From Sedimentisphaerales bacterium (lineage in GTDB: Bacteria; Planctomycetota; Phycisphaerae; Sedimentisphaerales; Anaerobacaceae), in NCBI GenBank assembly GCA_963708075.1, contig OY970194.1, positions 6,528,001 through 6,592,000 on the forward strand: a stretch of 64,000 nt of DNA. Direction: 5' to 3'. The notes beneath the pieces were generated by a model that was not told where the DNA came from, ran no database searches, and saw only the letters and a program-made list of their open reading frames with translations. The translations under genes and the position numbers were made by a program. Positions 1-25,896 of this stretch are shown here, in pieces (positions within the stretch are counted from its first letter, which is position 1; every line of letters begins with the position of its first letter).

Positions 1-36
1 TCGAGTGCCACTTTTTTGTCGTGCACCCCAAGTGCG

Positions 37-21475: not shown

Positions 21476-21944
21476 TCCTTTTTTAAGAAAACAACTTGAC
21501 TGTCAGGATGAACGCCATATCATTGGGGAAGCGATGTTTTGAGGGTAAGTATCGGCGTCTGCTTCGGAACCTGCATGGGGTGAAATGGGGGGCCGGATTC
21601 AGACGGCCGGCGGATGAGACAAAGAAAGGGGGAAAGTGCGATGACAACATTCATTATGACGGGGAGATACTTCGGAGAGGTTGCAACGCGGACCTTGGGC
21701 GATATCGGTCACACCTGCACATTTCAGGTGATTGCGGGGGCAGCATACTCGATGTGAGACCAGGGTAAGAGGATATCACGGAATTAGATCCGATAAATGG
21801 CGTGTTGTGCGGTTGTCGGTTTCGAGCCAATGGCTAACTTCTCGTTTCCCGTTTGGCTGTCGGCGTAACCCTCCGTATACTTTGCAGAACAGTCGAAGTC
21901 TGCCGCACGATAATGCGGCGTTTCGGAATCCAGAAGGGGGGAAT

Positions 21945-23340
21945 ATGAAACACGCCCGAAGTCTCCGGTTCTCGGAACCGGCGCGGCTCAGCGCTGGTCC
22001 TATCGCTCATCTTCCTGGTCATGTTCTCTGCCTTGGCCGTCGCCTTGGCCACTTTCTCCGGCGCCAACGTCCAAATCGCAGAGAATTTCCACCGGGCCGA
22101 TATGACCCGCGGCTGCGCGGAGTCAGGCCTGGAAGTGGTCCGCTACTGGCTCAGCCAGGTGCAGATGTCCGGCAAGATCGACGACAGTCAACGATTCACC
22201 ACCCTGGCGGCCATGCTGCAGAGCAGGCTGACCGCGGCCGACGCCGCGAACATCCTCAATGGGCTGACCTGCACCGAGTCCACCATCACCCTGGTCGATG
22301 TTCCGCTCAATTCGAGCGGCGGCCAGAGTTTCTCCGCGATCCTGACCAGGATCGATGACGACAATGTCCAGTTGGAGGTGACCGGCAGTTATGGCTCACT
22401 CCAGCGGAAGATCCGGTCCATCTTCCAGTACCTCCCGCGGGCGGACAACGTATTTGATTATGGCGTGGCCTCGAGGGGTCCTCTATCGCTATCGGGCAAC
22501 ATCGAGCTCGACGGCATCAACATCGAAGTGGAGTCGAATGCGTACATCGAGTGTACACCACTGCTGGCTTTGGAGATCATCGGCAACTCCATGATTGCCG
22601 GGGACGTGAAGATCGCGAATCCTCTGGCCTACGTCCATCTGCAGGGCGGACAAGCCGGTGTTGGCGGCGTGACCGGCGAGGAGGCCATGGAACACATCCA
22701 AATCGGTGTGCCGCCGACCGAGTTTCCAGAGATGGACCCGGACGATTTCTTAGGCTATGCCACCAATGTCCTGAGCCCCGCGGTGGACTTGGCCGCCAAT
22801 GCCGCGTACGACAACCTGCGGATTCCGGCCAACCGGAACCCGAGTTTCTCCGGACAGACCACGCTCCGAGGGGTCGTCTACATCGAGGCTCCGAATGTCG
22901 TCACCTTTACGGGAGGGGTGAATATCACGGGCATAATTGTCACAGACGGGGATCCGAGTGACAATTCCGGCGCGAGCCAACTGTCGTTCACCGGCAACGT
23001 CATGGGCTATCCCGTGAGCCAGTTGCCCCAGGAGTCGCAGTTCGAGGGCCTTCATGAGAAGACCGGCACGTTCATCCTCGCGCCCGGCTTCCACCTGAGC
23101 TTCGGAGGCAGTTTCTCCATGCTGAGCGGGGCCATCGCGGGCAATGGCATCGAACTCCACGGCAATGCCGGCGGCACGATCAATGGCTCCATGATCAATT
23201 ACTCCTCCTCGCCGATGACGCTCAGCGGCAACTCTGATCTGTTCTTCAATCGGTCCGGGCTCGATGAAGTGCCGGCGGGTTTCGTACCCAGGATTGTTAT
23301 GGTATACGATCCATCGTCATACGTGGAACCCGTGCTCTGA
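21945..23340 (+). CDS. PilX-like N-terminal domain protein (split by +1 frameshift)
   Basis: Removing one T from GGTTCTC at 21967-21973 gives MKHARSLRSRNRRGSALVLSLIFLVMF...AESGLE; paralog of 32630-33991 and 34246-35610. Confidence 0.8.
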
Positions 23341-23378
23341 GTCCGTCCAAAGGATACGGAGTCATCCATATAGGGTTC

Positions 23379-23904
23379 TTGGCAAGTAGAAAACACTCTC
23401 TTTGAACCGAAAACTCTCCCCCTATGAAACATCCGTATTTCGGTCTGCTTGTGTCTGCTGTTGTGCAGCGTGACACTAACCTATCGAAACGTCCGGGTTC
23501 CATCGCCCTTTTTCGCTCCTGCGAAGTTCGTTGGAGCAACGTGTCGAGTCCGCCGGCCGAAGGCAGGCGTCTCTTCCGTGCAGTCATCCATCCGGATCTG
23601 GACCTCAGTCCCTTGGGCCTCTCGGCACAAGGGCGGGCCCCATCCCGACCTCGTCGGGACCAGAACAACGTCAGTACCGCACCGGGTTCAATGGGTCGTC
23701 CATCACACGGGATGGACGGGACACACCTGGTGACTTGCCCCTCATGGGGGCATTCAACCCCGTCTGACTCCTGGCGCGGGCGAAAGAGATTTCAATGGAC
23801 TTGGATCATTTCTCCCGGCAAAAGGTCGAGGCGGCGGCCGTCCAATCACACCTGTGTGGTCTTAGCCAACCCCCAGTCCAAGATCGACCGCCGCACCGTT
23901 TCGC
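23379..23904 (-). ncRNA. Predicted bridge/seek RNA region of the IS1111-type element
   Basis: Guide-like matches to the target (23846-23854, 23765-23771) and to the donor end (23584-23591) in the expected order. Exact RNA ends unknown. Confidence 0.75.
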
Positions 23905-24930
23905 TCATCCGAACACCCGTTTCAGATCGAAGGCCTCCTGTCGCTGCATCATATAATAGGCCGCCTTACTCCACTTAGACGCCAACGCCTTCGTCGCCAG
24001 GGCCCCGTTGCGTTTGGACCGTTTCTTCTCGTAGAAACTCTTGGCCTTCGGACAGACTCGCAACGCATGGTGCACCGCCTCCACGAAGGCCCAGGCCAGA
24101 TAGGCGTTACCGTTCTTGCTGTTGTTCTCGTCCTTGTTCTTGCCGTTGGACGTGTGGGTCGCCCGGACACAGCGGCAGTAGGAGGTATAGTCCCCGACCG
24201 TCTCGAACCGCCCGATGTCCCCCGTCTCCAGCATGATCGTCAACGCCAGGATCACTCCCACCCCGGGCATCGTCAACAGGCATTCGTACGCCGGCTTGAG
24301 CTGCGCGTGCTCCAGGACCTTCTTCTCGAACCGCTTGATCTTCTTGCTGAACTGCTCGACCAGGTCCACCTGCTGCTCCGCCACGAACGTCAGACAGTCA
24401 TGGTCCCCCAGAAGCTCCGTACGCTCCGAAGCACTGAGCTTGCGAAAGGCACGCCACCCGACGCTTCGGCCGCTCTGACGCATCGCGAGGTTCTGAAGGC
24501 TCAGGACGATCCCCGTGCGCTGCTGCACCAGGAGCATCCGACGCCGCAAGAGGTCCCGCACCGGCCGGTCCTGACGCGGATAGATGTACCCGGTCGGCAG
24601 GACCTCCAGTCTCGCCAGGCGGGCCAGGAAGGCGGCGTCCGTCAGATCATCGGCGGCCTTGATCCCCTTGTATTGCTTCATCTCGCAAGGATGGGCGAGA
24701 ACGACAGGATAATGATGATCCATTAATCCGTCCACCAGCCAGTACCAGTTGTAGGTCGATTCGACGGCCACGACCTTGAGCCGCTCGCGGAAGGGCTCCA
24801 GCGACTCTAAGATCAGCGGCAACTCGTTCGGCAACCGTCTTCGCAACAGTGGCTTGTCCCGCCCGTCGGTGATAACATACATCGCATTGTTGGAATGAAG
24901 ATCGACGCCACAGAATAATGTCTTACGCAT
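23905..24930 (-). CDS. IS110-family DEDD recombinase/transposase
   Basis: CGVDLHSN, VESTYNW, DDLTDA; LTMPGVG..ETGDIGRF..HTSNGK..KNGNAYL. Confidence 0.95.
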   Translation of the reverse strand: MRKTLFCGVDLHSNNAMYVITDGRDKPLLRRRLPNELPLILESLEPFRERLKVVAVESTYNWYWLVDGLMDHHYPVVLAHPCEMKQYKGIKAADDLTDAAFLARLARLEVLPTGYIYPRQDRPVRDLLRRRMLLVQQRTGIVLSLQNLAMRQSGRSVGWRAFRKLSASERTELLGDHDCLTFVAEQQVDLVEQFSKKIKRFEKKVLEHAQLKPAYECLLTMPGVGVILALTIMLETGDIGRFETVGDYTSYCRCVRATHTSNGKNKDENNSKNGNAYLAWAFVEAVHHALRVCPKAKSFYEKKRSKRNGALATKALASKWSKAAYYMMQRQEAFDLKRVFG

Positions 24931-25211
24931 GTTCGGGCTCCTTTCCTTGAGCGTCAGCAATTCGTGTGCTGTCTCCCATCGGCAGCCTCCTGGTTTCCCA
25001 GTGTAGCTGCCTCAGGGAAGGAACCCTATATGCTTATCACACCTGCACATCTCACGATTGGGGTGACGAGGTCTCAGGGGGTATCGTGACGATGGAGGCA
25101 AGAGGAGCGGCTGCTACTTCAACCTCCAGCGGGCGTCAGAGGTTCTGAGGCCTGCCCTCGGCCGGGCTCCGTTTGGCCCGCCGATAGGCATGGGCAACGA
25201 TGCGATCTGAG

Positions 25212-25896
25212 CTACAGCCGTGTCATTCCCGAGGAGGAGACCGACTTCACCGCACGGCCTGTCTCGCACAGCTTCCTGTTCAGTTGCTGGATTCGCCAGG
25301 GCCAGTTCCCGCTCCAGCCCTCGGATTGGGCCTGCCTGCACAACTCAATAGCCGGCTCGTAGGCTCCCTCCTGCTCCAGCATGGTGCTCGCCACCAGGTA
25401 GCCCAGATGGACCGGGAGCGAGTCGCCAGGGTGCGTTTGCCGCAGCGCTTTGGCGGCGTCTGGCGCCAAGCGGATCTGCTTGTGACAGGCGGCAAACGCC
25501 AGGTCCCGGGCGTCCGCGAACGCATCCTTCCACCGGCTTTGGAGGCGGATCATCTGATGATACACATAGTACAGTCCAAGCGTGTCGTTCTCCGCCGTTG
25601 CTCTCTGCTCGGCCTTCGCGAGGACTCTGGATGCCAGGCCCCTGTCCTGAGGCTTCTCACTGAGCCGATCCGCAAGGACCGTGAGCAGGTTCGCCGCCGT
25701 CTGGAAAGTCGTCCGTCCTCTGTCTCTCGTCAGAGGTTCTCGATTTGGCGGGCATAGCAGAGGTGCGGAAGGCGGCTTCCATGTACTGCTGCTCGGCGGC
25801 AGAGAACGAGGATATCCACCATCCTGTAAGGCCGAAGTATCCAAGTTCGCCCGTGGACTGAGAGCGTTTTGTAAAGATTCTACTGAGGATGTCCAT
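25212..25896 (-). CDS. Hypothetical helical protein (split by +1 frameshift)
   Basis: ORF starting MDILSRIF joins the downstream frame (..SRPLTRDRG..) if one base is removed from GGTTCTC at 25735-25741. Confidence 0.7.

What the first reader, a model, noticed from the sequence alone, without database searches (positions are those of the whole stretch)
23358..25045. IS1111-type element whose bridge/seek RNA guides can be read against its own insertion site
In element sense, the reconstructed empty target is ..GCAGGTG-TGA-CTCCGT.. and the circle junction is ..TATGGA-TGA-TAAGCA.., with shared core TGA. The non-coding region 3' of the recombinase contains three segments in 5'-to-3' order. First, CAGGTGTGA (23854-23846) equals left target plus core (9/9 match to 25037-25045). 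Second, GGAGTCA (23771-23765) is the reverse complement of core plus right target (7/7 match to 23358-23364). Third, ATGGATGA (23591-23584) equals left donor plus core (8/8 match to 23362-23369). This order and orientation fit the established IS110/IS1111 RNA-guided recombination model. The system class is known. This member has a ~525-nt non-coding region, an apparent 3-nt core and target guides ~75 nt apart, so it is a candidate new programmable recombinase. I could not find a right-donor guide. A TTGCCA just inside the downstream IR could act as the -35 of a junction promoter.
Basis: partly seen in the sequence, partly recalled or inferred. Interest (0 to 1): 0.85.

Follow-up and report, generated by a model that had tools for sequence, protein, structure and literature searches.

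The report
IS1111-type element with guide RNA

Summary
Window 25036-23362 (minus strand, 1675 bp) is an IS110-family element of the IS1111 type. It has a 341-aa DEDD recombinase, 12-bp subterminal inverted repeats and a 543-nt 3' non-coding region.

- Left-target guide CAGGTGTGA (23854-23846): confirmed. Across 34 related elements it matches the left flank at 158 of 204 variable positions (shuffles 94 ± 6).
- Left-donor guide ATGGATGA (23591-23584): confirmed. It changes together with the right end in several lineages.
- Right-target guide GGAGTCA (23771-23765): not supported. Its TCA is one strand of an RNA helix (T:A in 25 sequences, C:G in 22), while the DNA core stays TGA.

The better right-target guide is ACUGGGGG(U) at 23877-23870. 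It lies 5' of the left-target guide in the same 77-nt stem-loop (23900-23824), which is the published IS1111 seekRNA order.

The target is a dispersed REP-like repeat, GTGAAATGTGTAGGTGTGA|CCCC, with 31 uninterrupted copies in this genome. Some copies flank an IS200-like (RAYT-type) gene.

The shared TGA may be only a TG core. No right-donor guide was found.

This is a new member of a known kind, with moderate interest.

The parts
23362..25036 (-). Element proper (1675 bp), counting the shared TGA once at the right end
   Evidence: Borders come from the TGA at both junctions, from alignment with 5 full-length relatives whose flanks diverge exactly there, and from 31 uninterrupted target copies.
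25037..25055 (-). Left half of the interrupted REP-like target (GTGAGATGTGCAGGTGTGA, with TGA at 25039-25037)
   Evidence: Matches the dispersed motif GTGAAATGTGTAGGTGTGA|CCCC.
23352..23361 (-). Right half of the target (CTCCGTATCC)
   Evidence: Uninterrupted copies read TGA-CCCC(G/C)TATTC. Here the second base is T.
25021..25032 (-). Left subterminal inverted repeat CATATAGGGTTC, 7 bp (TGATAAG) from the left junction if TGA is counted with the element
   Evidence: The 7-bp left extension is described for ISEc11 in PMC11187229, section 7.
23367..23378 (-). Right subterminal inverted repeat GAACCCTATATG
23905..24930 (-). Recombinase gene, 341 aa
   Evidence: PF01548 E 4.5e-11 and PF02371 E 2.5e-16. 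A profile of 7 relatives hits IS621 (8wt6, E 4e-12) and ISCro4 (9t56, E 7e-13). S261 aligns with the serine of the ESG stretch of IS621 and ISCro4, and D95/D98 and E57 lie in the aligned DEDD stretch; these residues are named catalytic in IS621 in PMC11208158 passages. All four, with D10, are invariant in the 7-sequence alignment.
23824..23900 (-). Stem-loop SL1, the target-binding loop (seekRNA-like, 77 nt)
   Evidence: 48-sequence alignment: 11 pairs, 10 with compensatory changes; 88.8% paired versus 66.4% shuffled (0 of 500) and 27-44% when slid. It folds to the same shape in 4 single sequences.
23867..23877 (-). Proposed right-target guide ACUGGGGG (23877-23870) followed by UUG, which starts the mini-hairpin
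   Evidence: This is the best column for complementarity to the right flank (7.03 of 10, z 4.2). RT+1..4 is paired 146 of 156 versus 134.9 ± 1.6 (0 of 5000). Guide variants GCUG, AGGG (twice) and CGGG (twice) meet flanks CAGC, CCCT and CCCG, and GUGG meets CCAC in L068. In G171, GCGGGUU meets AACCCGC.
23846..23854 (-).
   Evidence: 9 of 9 to the own flank. 158 of 204 variable positions equal the flank in 34 elements, versus 94.3 ± 6.05 (0 of 5000). 8 of 8 in 5 of 5 copies of the G171 element.
23765..23771 (-).
23722..23764 (-). Second, target-loop-like internal loop: G-rich 5' strand GACGGGGU (23764-23757), a hairpin, AAGUCAC, and site B CAGGUGUG (23729-23722)
   Evidence: Site B against the flank: 114 of 204 versus 87.2 ± 5.0. 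Site B against the left-target guide: 55 of 78 (close group) and 118 of 228 (distant group), with 1 and 2 of 5000 shuffles reaching these values. Site B is not re-programmed in the G171, G257 and G072 elements. Role unknown.
23584..23591 (-).
   Evidence: 8 of 8 to the own right end. Best column for the right end: 9.10 of 10, z 6.1, in 42 sequences. Joint changes in L023, L024, L019, L090/L085, L010/L015 and L068.
23571..23788 (-). Domain 2, closed by CUCUUUCG (23788-23781) pairing with CGGAAGAG (23578-23571)
   Evidence: RNAalifold on 13 sequences: 80 pairs, 24 with compensatory changes. All 8 pairs of this closing stem are near-invariant, so they carry no covariation evidence.
23380..23385 (-). 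TTGCCA, the likely -35 of a junction promoter; 16 nt downstream, GATAAG would form across the circle junction
   Evidence: TTGACA stands at the same place in most relatives of both groups. The junction promoter is shown for ISEc11 (PMC11187229, section 7). Here it is inferred by eye only.
21705..21727 (-). A second, uninterrupted copy of the REP-like target motif in the window
   Evidence: Genome C1:6549705-6549727.

Best explanation
**What it is.** A single, apparently intact IS1111-type (IS110-family) insertion sequence, inserted site-specifically into one copy of a REP-like repeat.

**The RNA.** Its 3' non-coding region encodes a conserved structured RNA of about 330 nt (about 23900-23570). 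This is the bridge/seek RNA.

**Target reading.** The first 77 nt form a stem-loop whose internal loop reads the target. The 5' strand, ACUGGGGG(U) at 23877-23870, pairs with the top strand to the right of the crossover (A)CCCC... [quoted passage not shown] **Reaction.** The DEDD/Ser recombinase would recombine the circle junction (..TATGGA-TG(A)-TAAGCA..) with the target (..CAGGTG-TG(A)-CCCC..) at the TG(A) core.

**Expression.** Transcription of the recombinase gene and the RNA would be driven by a promoter assembled at the circle junction: TTGCCA, 16 nt, GATAAG.

**Shown here.** Family, borders, target repeat, RNA stem-loop, and co-variation of two guides (strong) and a third (moderate) with the flanks.

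**Inferred.** RNA expression and processing, circle formation, the junction promoter, the chemistry and current activity.
For: **Family.** Both Pfam domains are present. A profile of relatives hits IS621 and ISCro4, with the catalytic positions conserved.

**Borders and target.** Relatives' flanks diverge at the TGA. There are 31 uninterrupted target copies. Inverted copies flank a Y1_Tnp gene.

**RNA.** The non-coding region is conserved down to 45% protein identity over profile positions about 14-340. SL1 covariation: 88.8% paired versus 66.4% shuffled, 0 of 500.

**Left-target guide.** 158 of 204 versus 94.3 ± 6.05, 0 of 5000. Best column z 5.3.

**Left-donor guide.** 9.10 of 10, z 6.1, with joint changes in six lineages.

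**Right-target guide.** RT+1..4 paired 146 of 156 versus 134.9 ± 1.6, 0 of 5000.

**Out-of-sample check** (genomes fetched afterwards).
- G171: 5 of 5 copies have the left-target guide equal to the flank at 8 of 8.
- G171: GCGGGUU matches AACCCGC at 7 of 7 in 3 copies (2 distinct sites).
- G257 and G072: the left-target guide follows the different flanks (GATGTG versus GGTTTG).

**Order.** The strand complementary to the top strand lying 5' of the one complementary to the bottom strand agrees with PMC11187229, section 9.
Against: - No expression data: no RNA run holds the element.
- No contig shows a circle junction or an empty site.
- There is only one copy with a recombinase gene in 7.5 Mb despite 31 or more targets, so activity may be low or nil.
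- The own right flank is CTCC, not CCCC, and pairs with the proposed right-target guide over only 4 nt, one of them G:T.
- Beyond the first four bases the right-target signal is weak: 95 of 195 versus 83.9 ± 6.0, reached by 181 of 5000 shuffles.
- Two of the eight non-GGGG guide variants do not fit their flank (L027, L035; the six that fit are five plus L068).
- The UUG after the guide belongs to a mini-hairpin, so whether the core is read on that strand is open.
- No right-donor guide was found.
- The -35 is TTGCCA here, not TTGACA.
- All shuffle tests ignore relatedness of the sequences and overstate significance.
- The single-sequence fold of the whole RNA is no better than shuffles (z -0.86).
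Confidence: 0.8

Rival explanations
1. The left-target guide (23854-46), then GGAGUCA (23771-65) as right-target guide about 75 nt downstream, then the left-donor guide: the IS621-like order.
For: GGAGTCA is a 7 of 7 reverse complement of TGACTCC at the own right junction. This window's flank is CTCC, which fits GGAG better than it fits GGGG.
Against: A 7-mer match arises in 108 of 2000 shuffles. GAGTCA is invariant in 13 of 13 close relatives, whose right flanks are CCCC, CCAC, CAGC and so on. The two G's lie in a stem with G:C in 7 and U:A in 6 sequences. The UCA pairs with 23690-23688, as T:A in 25, C:G in 22 and C:A in 4 sequences, so 26 of 51 sequences read CCA although their DNA core is still TGA. 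The order is opposite to the published IS1111 order (PMC11187229, section 9).
Confidence: 0.05
2. The second loop (23764-23722), with its G-rich strand and site B CAGGUGUG, is a working second target-binding loop. It might check the flanks at excision or offer a second target specificity.
For: CAGGTGTG occurs twice (0 of 2000 shuffles). Site B against the flank is 114 of 204 versus 87.2 ± 5.0, and against the left-target guide 55 of 78 and 118 of 228. L027 has the unusual GGGATG in both sites. In L007, L016, L063 and L087 site B fits the flank better than site A does. GACGGGG pairs with the own right flank CTCCGT better than SL1 does (read). The loop has the same layout as SL1.
Against: In G171, site B matches the flank at only 4 of 8, although 5 copies share that flank. 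The G257 and G072 elements have the same site B while their left-target guides and flanks differ. Within the largest distant subgroup site B is nearly constant (..GATCTG) while flanks vary. Where site A differs from the flank, site B agrees with the flank 9 times and with A 9 times of 22. The 5' strand does not follow the flank (L019 GGGC against CAGC). The correlation could be shared descent.
Confidence: 0.15
3. The element is a dead or dormant relic. The guide-flank matches are a fossil of the last insertion, and no RNA-guided reaction occurs now.
For: It is a single copy. There are only 5'-truncated solo right ends elsewhere. The -35 is weakened to TTGCCA. No circle or empty-site joint appears in 4 metagenome contig sets.
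Against: The reading frame is open and the catalytic positions are kept. All RNA helices and guides are intact, and both guides match their own DNA perfectly. A contig from another sample carries a 99%-identical copy (11 differences in 1651 nt) whose sequence left of 25055 differs, which hints at another site.
Confidence: 0.2
4. The internal CAGGTGTG(A) segments are captured pieces of the REP-like repeat rather than guides.
For: The target is a repeat present in 31 or more copies.
Against: Only 8-9 nt are shared, not the rest of the 23-nt motif. The segment sits in a conserved loop and changes with the flank in elements that use other left targets, such as AAACCTGA, AGATTTGA and GGTCCGA.
Confidence: 0.02

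Closest known systems
IS1111-group seekRNA elements (ISEc11, ISPa11, ISKpn4; Siddiquee et al. 2024, PMC11187229; sections 6-10 and 13 read)
   Same: - DEDD recombinase of 330-350 aa.
- Subterminal inverted repeats, with a 7-bp left extension.
- Long non-coding region 3' of the gene.
- An RNA stem-loop starting just after the stop codon, of about the seekRNA size (77 nt here; 82-96 nt published).
- The strand complementary to the target's top strand lies 5' of the strand matching it.
- The target is a repeat (ISPa11 uses a REP).
- A promoter is formed at the circle junction.
   Different: - Protein identity to the named members was not measured here.
- The conserved RNA region is about 330 nt. 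It includes a second target-loop-like loop and a segment matching the right end; the paper's text does not describe these for its 82-172-nt RNAs.
- Nothing is tested experimentally here.
IS621 bridge RNA (Durrant et al. 2024, PMC11208160; Hiraizumi et al. 2024, PMC11208158; passages read)
   Same: - The left guides carry the same sequence as left target plus core and left donor plus core.
- The right guide is complementary to the top strand.
- The core is short (CT there, TG(A) here).
- The catalytic residues align.
   Different: - The RNA is 3' of the gene, not 5'.
- Guide order within the loop is reversed.
- Long subterminal repeats are present.
- No right-donor guide is recognisable.
- The profile E-value to IS621 is only 4e-12, and phmmer with the single protein finds nothing.
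IS4321/IS5075 and REP-targeting IS110-family elements (Partridge & Hall 2003; Tobes & Pareja 2006; seen only as references in the papers read)
   Same: Insertion at one fixed position and orientation inside another repeated or mobile sequence.
   Different: Here the host repeat is a 23-nt or longer motif, some copies of which flank an IS200-like Y1 transposase gene in inverted orientation.
ISPpu9 modular circles (Pares-Guillen et al. 2025, PMC12288879; abstract and outline read)
   Same: Stand-alone copies of the 3' RNA-side module exist in the genome without the recombinase gene.
   Different: Here the solo pieces are 5'-truncated at different points (53-380 nt) and lack the target-binding stem-loop, so they look like remnants rather than a defined module.

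Membership tests
IS110 family | Recombinase with N-terminal DEDD (RuvC-like) domain PF01548 and C-terminal PF02371 | tested here: met
   PF01548 E 4.5e-11 and PF02371 E 2.5e-16, both above the curated cut-offs.
IS110 family | Catalytic D, E, D, D and the serine of the SG motif | tested here: met
   D10, E57, D95, D98 and S261 are invariant in 7 relatives. The profile alignment to IS621 and ISCro4 puts S261 on the serine of ESG. The next residue is N, not G.
IS1111 group | Subterminal inverted repeats of 7-17 bp | tested here: met
   CATATAGGGTTC and GAACCCTATATG are 12 bp (13-15 bp in relatives). They lie 7 bp and 5 bp from the ends if TGA is counted on that side.
IS1111 group | Long non-coding region downstream of the recombinase gene, short left end | tested here: met
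   543 nt downstream against 106 nt upstream.
IS1111 group | Site- and orientation-specific insertion without target duplication beyond the shared core | tested here: met
   Uninterrupted copies have one TGA. Relatives insert at ..NNNNTGA|CCCC.. in the same orientation.
IS1111 group | Recombinase clusters with IS1111-group proteins in a tree | not tested
   No named IS1111 or IS110 reference set was at hand. The best annotated plasmid hits read only 'IS110 family transposase' (48.8%) and 'ISGsu4 family' (41%).
seekRNA / bridge RNA systems | RNA segments matching both strands of the target, co-varying with it | tested here: met
   Left strand: (strong). Right strand: (moderate; mainly the first 4-7 nt).
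seekRNA / bridge RNA systems | For IS1111: the top-strand match lies 5' of the bottom-strand match | tested here: met
23877-23870 lies 5' of 23854-23846 in one loop.
bridge RNA (IS621 sense) | Donor-binding loop with both left- and right-donor guides | tested here: inconclusive
   The left-donor guide is met. No column is complementary to the right donor beyond what the inverted repeats themselves give.
seekRNA / bridge RNA systems | The RNA is made, binds the recombinase and is needed for circle formation and insertion | not testable with these tools
   No RNA run holds the element. Contigs show no circle junction.

The most novel reading that the evidence does not exclude
The roughly 330-nt RNA of this clade carries two target-type loops in tandem: SL1, and the loop 23764-23722 with site B. 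The left half of the target would then be read twice, for example once for insertion and once to check the flanks before excision. If so, this would be a three-loop architecture not described for IS621 or for the 82-172-nt seekRNAs. Searches of the held library and the passages read from a 2026 review (PMC13604230) mention no such design. The figures of Durrant et al. on IS1111 RNAs could not be seen.
Probability: 0.15. Interest if true: 0.7.

Novelty: new member of a known kind. Interest (0 to 1): 0.42.

Why it matters
RNA-guided IS110/IS1111 recombinases are being developed as genome-writing tools. Published IS1111 work rests on a handful of proteobacterial elements.

This work adds the following:
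- A guide map checked by comparison, for a clade of at least 50 elements from Planctomycetota and other environmental bacteria.
- The position and order of the two target strands and the left-donor strand.
- A short TG(A) core.
- A natural target repeat with 31 ready-made sites in one genome.

It also shows how a plausible 7 of 7 match can mislead when it falls in an RNA helix.

For the biology of this genome, the element is an ordinary insertion sequence in an intergenic repeat.

Tried and rejected
- **Rfam:** no family matched 23000-25400 at E ≤ 1.
- **PDB, single protein:** phmmer found nothing. The profile search succeeded.
- **Whole-RNA fold:** MFE z -0.86, uninformative, and it disagrees with the comparative structure.
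- **Promoters and terminators:** no sigma-70-like promoter on the element's strand and no terminator inside it.
- **Sequencing runs:** no RNA holder is listed. Contigs of 4 runs from one study show no circle-junction or empty-site joint.
- **Orthologous empty site:** 22 of 23 same-genus genomes have the neighbouring gene. In the 7 loci inspected there is neither the repeat nor the element at that spot, so no orthologous empty site was obtained.
- **Right-donor guide:** mutual information and a sliding complementarity scan gave no site beyond the effect of the inverted repeats. RD+4 agrees with 23579 in 82% of sequences, but only three subfamilies differ, so this is confounded. Manual registers of UACUGACGUUGU (23676-23665) against the left end were inconsistent between subfamilies.
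- **Intramolecular partner for the guides:** none found.
- **Flawed extraction:** a first regex extraction of the right-target strand picked the wrong segment in several rows (win, L007, L009, L020, L027 and others), so its numbers are discarded. It was redone from alignment columns.
- **Chance complement:** a 7-mer ATACGGA at about 23437 complements the right flank +2..+8 (reached by 21 of 2000 shuffles). It is not conserved in relatives, so it was set aside as chance.
- **Earlier findings of this scan:** none near.
- **Rows left out:**
  - L093 was dropped because its ends were mis-extracted.
  - L022 was left out of the 51-sequence alignment because it is cut.
  - L010 (twin of L015), L068 and L093 were left out of the 48-sequence SL1 alignment.
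  - Elements whose contig lacks the left or right flank are absent from the respective counts (N = 34 for left, 39 for right, 42 for the right end).
Full report
**1. What is at the locus**

On the minus strand the window reads ..GTGAGATGTGCAGGTG-TGA|TAAGCATATAGGGTTCC.. at the left and ..GAACCCTATATGGA-TGA|CTCCGTATCC.. at the right. Between these lies one long ORF, 24930-23905, of 341 aa. It carries both IS110-family domains: PF01548 at E 4.5e-11 and PF02371 at E 2.5e-16.

A profile of seven relatives reaches the solved IS621 and ISCro4 recombinases (E 4e-12 and 7e-13). It puts S261 on the serine of their ESG stretch (named catalytic S241 for IS621 in PMC11208158). D10, E57, D95, D98 and S261 are invariant among the relatives.

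The 12-bp inverted repeats CATATAGGGTTC and GAACCCTATATG are subterminal. The left non-coding end is 106 nt and the right one 543 nt. These are the features that the two 2024 papers give for the IS1111 group (PMC11208160 passages; PMC11187229 section 6). Rfam has no model that matches.

**2.

All three strings stand where stated. In 2000 dinucleotide shuffles of the non-coding region, the 9-mer arises in 10, the 8-mer in 29 and the 7-mer GGAGTCA in 108.

**3. Relatives**

- One scan of species genomes gave 12 loci.
- One metagenome scan gave 593 confirmed relatives, of which 80 were kept.
- Thirteen sequences at 66-83% protein identity share the whole non-coding region.
- Relatives at 44-51% identity still share profile positions about 14-340 of 562. 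This runs from the stop codon to just past ATGGATGA.
- The conserved RNA is therefore about 330 nt (about 23900-23570). The remaining 200 nt or so hold the -35 box and the inverted repeat.

**4. The target**

The flanks of the relatives diverge exactly at the TGA. However, the left flanks of win, L016 and L021 resemble each other over about 20 nt.

Searching the own 7.5-Mb genome showed why. The sequence GTGAAATGTGTAGGTGTGA|CCCC(C) is a dispersed repeat, with 31 uninterrupted copies within four mismatches.
- Copies occur as inverted pairs 260 bp apart (twice) and 1138 bp apart (twice).
- The 1138-bp unit encodes a 336-aa protein with the IS200-like Y1 transposase domain (PF01797, E 9e-11).

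Repeats flanking such a gene in inverted orientation are what is described for REP elements and their RAYT transposases (recalled knowledge). IS110/IS1111 elements that insert into REPs are known (ISPa11 in PMC11187229; ISPpu9 in PMC12288879).

No orthologous empty site was found in seven same-genus loci.

**5. Structure of the RNA**

RNAalifold on 13 close sequences gives 80 pairs, 24 of them with compensatory changes.

*The first domain (23900-23824).* This is a long stem enclosing a loop with three parts:
- a 5' strand ..GGACUGGGGG;
- a mini-hairpin (UUGG..CCA);
- a 3' strand CA-CAGGUGUGA-UU.

On 48 sequences of both groups the stem has 11 pairs, 10 with compensatory changes. Of all cells, 88.8% are paired, against 66.4% in shuffles (0 of 500) and 27-44% when the partner is slid. 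Four single sequences fold to the same shape.

*The second domain.* It is closed by CUCUUUCG/CGGAAGAG (23788-23781 with 23578-23571) and contains:
- stem P2;
- a second internal loop (23764-23722);
- hairpins;
- the strand ..AGAUCCGG-AUGGAUGA-CUGCA.

**6. Which segments read DNA**

For every element whose ends lie on the contig I tabulated flanks and RNA columns.

It is also the best column of a sliding scan (8.36 of 10, z 5.3).

*Left donor.* ATGGATGA is the best column for the right end (9.10 of 10, z 6.1; 42 sequences). It changes together with that end in several lineages:

| Element | RNA segment | Right end |
|---|---|---|
| L023 | ATGGGTGA | ATGGGTGA |
| L024 | ATGAATGA | ATGAATGA |
| L019 | ATGGATGG | ATGGATGG |
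| L090/L085 | ATGGCTGA | ATGGCTGA |
| L010/L015 and L068 | ..GGGTGC | ..GGGTGC |

*Right target.* The best column is not GGAGTCA. It is the 5' strand of the first stem-loop, starting at 23877 (7.03 of 10, z 4.2).
- The four bases next to the mini-hairpin pair with the first four flank bases in 146 of 156 cells (134.9 ± 1.6; 0 of 5000).
- The next five positions are only weakly above chance (95 of 195 versus 83.9 ± 6.0; 181 of 5000).
- Of eight elements whose strand is not GGGG, six have the matching flank: GCUG with CAGC, AGGG with CCCT (twice), CGGG with CCCG (twice), and GUGG with CCAC. L027 and L035 do not.

**7. Why GGAGTCA is not a guide**

- GAGTCA is invariant in the 13 close relatives although their right flanks differ.
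- The two bases before it form pairs of P2, one of which is G:C in 7 and U:A in 6 sequences.
- The UCA pairs with UGA at 23690-23688. The first pair is T:A in 25 sequences, C:G in 22 and C:A in 4. The second is C:G in 51 of 51. The third is A:T in 41 of 51.
- In the 26 sequences that read CCA, the DNA core is still TGA.

So the 7 of 7 match in this window comes from a structural motif plus the unusual CTCC flank of this copy.

**8. Independent check**

After the map was fixed I searched 401 genomes of the phylum; 16 had a match.

- *G171.* It holds five copies of one element (47% identity) at four distinct sites.
  - Its loop strand AAACCUGA equals the left flank in 5 of 5 copies.
  - Its 5' strand GCGGGUU is the complement of the right flank AACCCGC in 3 copies (2 distinct sites).
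  - One of the other two copies fits after a 4-nt shift (6 of 7). The other fits at 4 of 7.
- *G257 and G072.* These two related elements differ in the left strand (GAGAUGUGA versus GAGGUUUGA), exactly as their flanks do.

This confirms both target strands on data not used to find them, including a target that is not CCCC.

**9. Core**

In this window TGA is shared. In L068 and L010/L015 the right junction reads ..GGGTG|C.., and in L019 the two junctions read TGA and TGG. The shared part can therefore be as short as TG.

The A is then the first base of both the right target and the left end, and it pairs with the U that follows GGGG. A 3-nt core is thus an upper bound.

**10. Order and comparison**

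The seekRNA paper states that in IS1111 elements the match to the top strand lies 5' of the match to the bottom strand. It also states that the short RNA (82-96 nt) maps downstream of the stop codon, and that the order is reversed in IS110-type elements (PMC11187229 abstract and sections 8-9).

The 77-nt stem-loop here fits that description.

**11. Promoter**

No sigma-70-like site lies on the element's strand. TTGCCA (23385-23380) is TTGACA in most relatives of both groups, at a fixed distance from the end. Sixteen bases further, joining the ends would give GATAAG (GATAAT in the distant group).

This matches the junction promoter shown for ISEc11 (PMC11187229 section 7). Here it is read by eye and not tested.

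**12. Open points**

*(a) No right-donor guide was found*.

*(b) The second loop.* It has the layout of the first: a G-rich strand, UUGA-hairpin-UCA, then CAGGUGUG.
- Its site B correlates with the left guide and flank.
- It is not re-programmed in the validation elements.
- I rate a guiding role at about 15%.

*(c) Solo right ends in the own genome.* There is no second recombinase gene and no second left end. There are five 5'-truncated right ends of 53-380 nt.
- All keep the exact terminus ..TATATGGATGA|CCCC.
- One is 97% identical to this element. The others resemble the L025 subfamily.
- A similar tandem duplication of the terminal 21 nt occurs in L125.
- Their origin is unexplained. ISPpu9's stand-alone RNA modules are the nearest precedent (PMC12288879 abstract).

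*(d) Expression and activity are unknown*.

**13. Verdict**

This is a known kind of system. The third guide, the guide spacing, the stated agreement with the IS1111 order and the core length need correction.

Confidence in the overall reading is about 0.8. Interest is moderate.

Noticed in passing
Own genome outside the window: C1:214787-214988; 2713435-2713816 with tandem 2713334-2713403; 481312-481555; 5317847-5317899: There are five solo, 5'-truncated right ends of this element family (53-380 nt). All end exactly at ..CCCTATATGGATGA|CCCC, and none has a recombinase gene or left end nearby. Two of them lie 20-30 nt downstream of an intact REP-like copy. The mechanism is unknown.
   Followed up: partly
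Own genome, e.g. C1:478630-479767 (L099) and 6908899-6910036; window 21705-21727: A REP-like repeat family (GTGAAATGTGTAGGTGTGACCCC) has 31 copies. Inverted pairs flank an IS200-like Y1 transposase gene (1138-bp unit) or form 260-bp doublets (C1:5813026-5813285 and 5815412-5815671).
   Followed up: partly
L125 (G257:C1), right end: The last 21 nt of the element's right end are duplicated in tandem (..TAATGGGTGA|caaaagccttctaatgggtga|ccc..). This is the same kind of event as the 70-nt tandem at C1:2713334-2713403.
   Followed up: no
window 23698 (run X2 contig): A metagenome contig of a near-identical element carries a 25-nt insertion behind 23698, within the hairpin that follows site B. Another contig (X1) continues left of 25055 into different sequence, suggesting the same element at another site or in another strain.
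   Followed up: no
L110, L112 (G257, G072), between stop codon and stem-loop: In these relatives about 330 nt of extra, purine-rich sequence separate the recombinase stop codon from the target-binding stem-loop. The RNA therefore need not start at the stop codon.
   Followed up: no
window 22021-23340 (+): The 439-aa ORF that ends 18 nt from the element's right end has no Pfam match. It is conserved (68-74% DNA identity) in 22 of 23 same-genus genomes searched.
   Followed up: no
L043, L039: In these relatives the core reads CGA at the junctions and in the left-target strand, while the left-donor strand keeps TGA. This is a natural core mismatch between the two loops.
   Followed up: no
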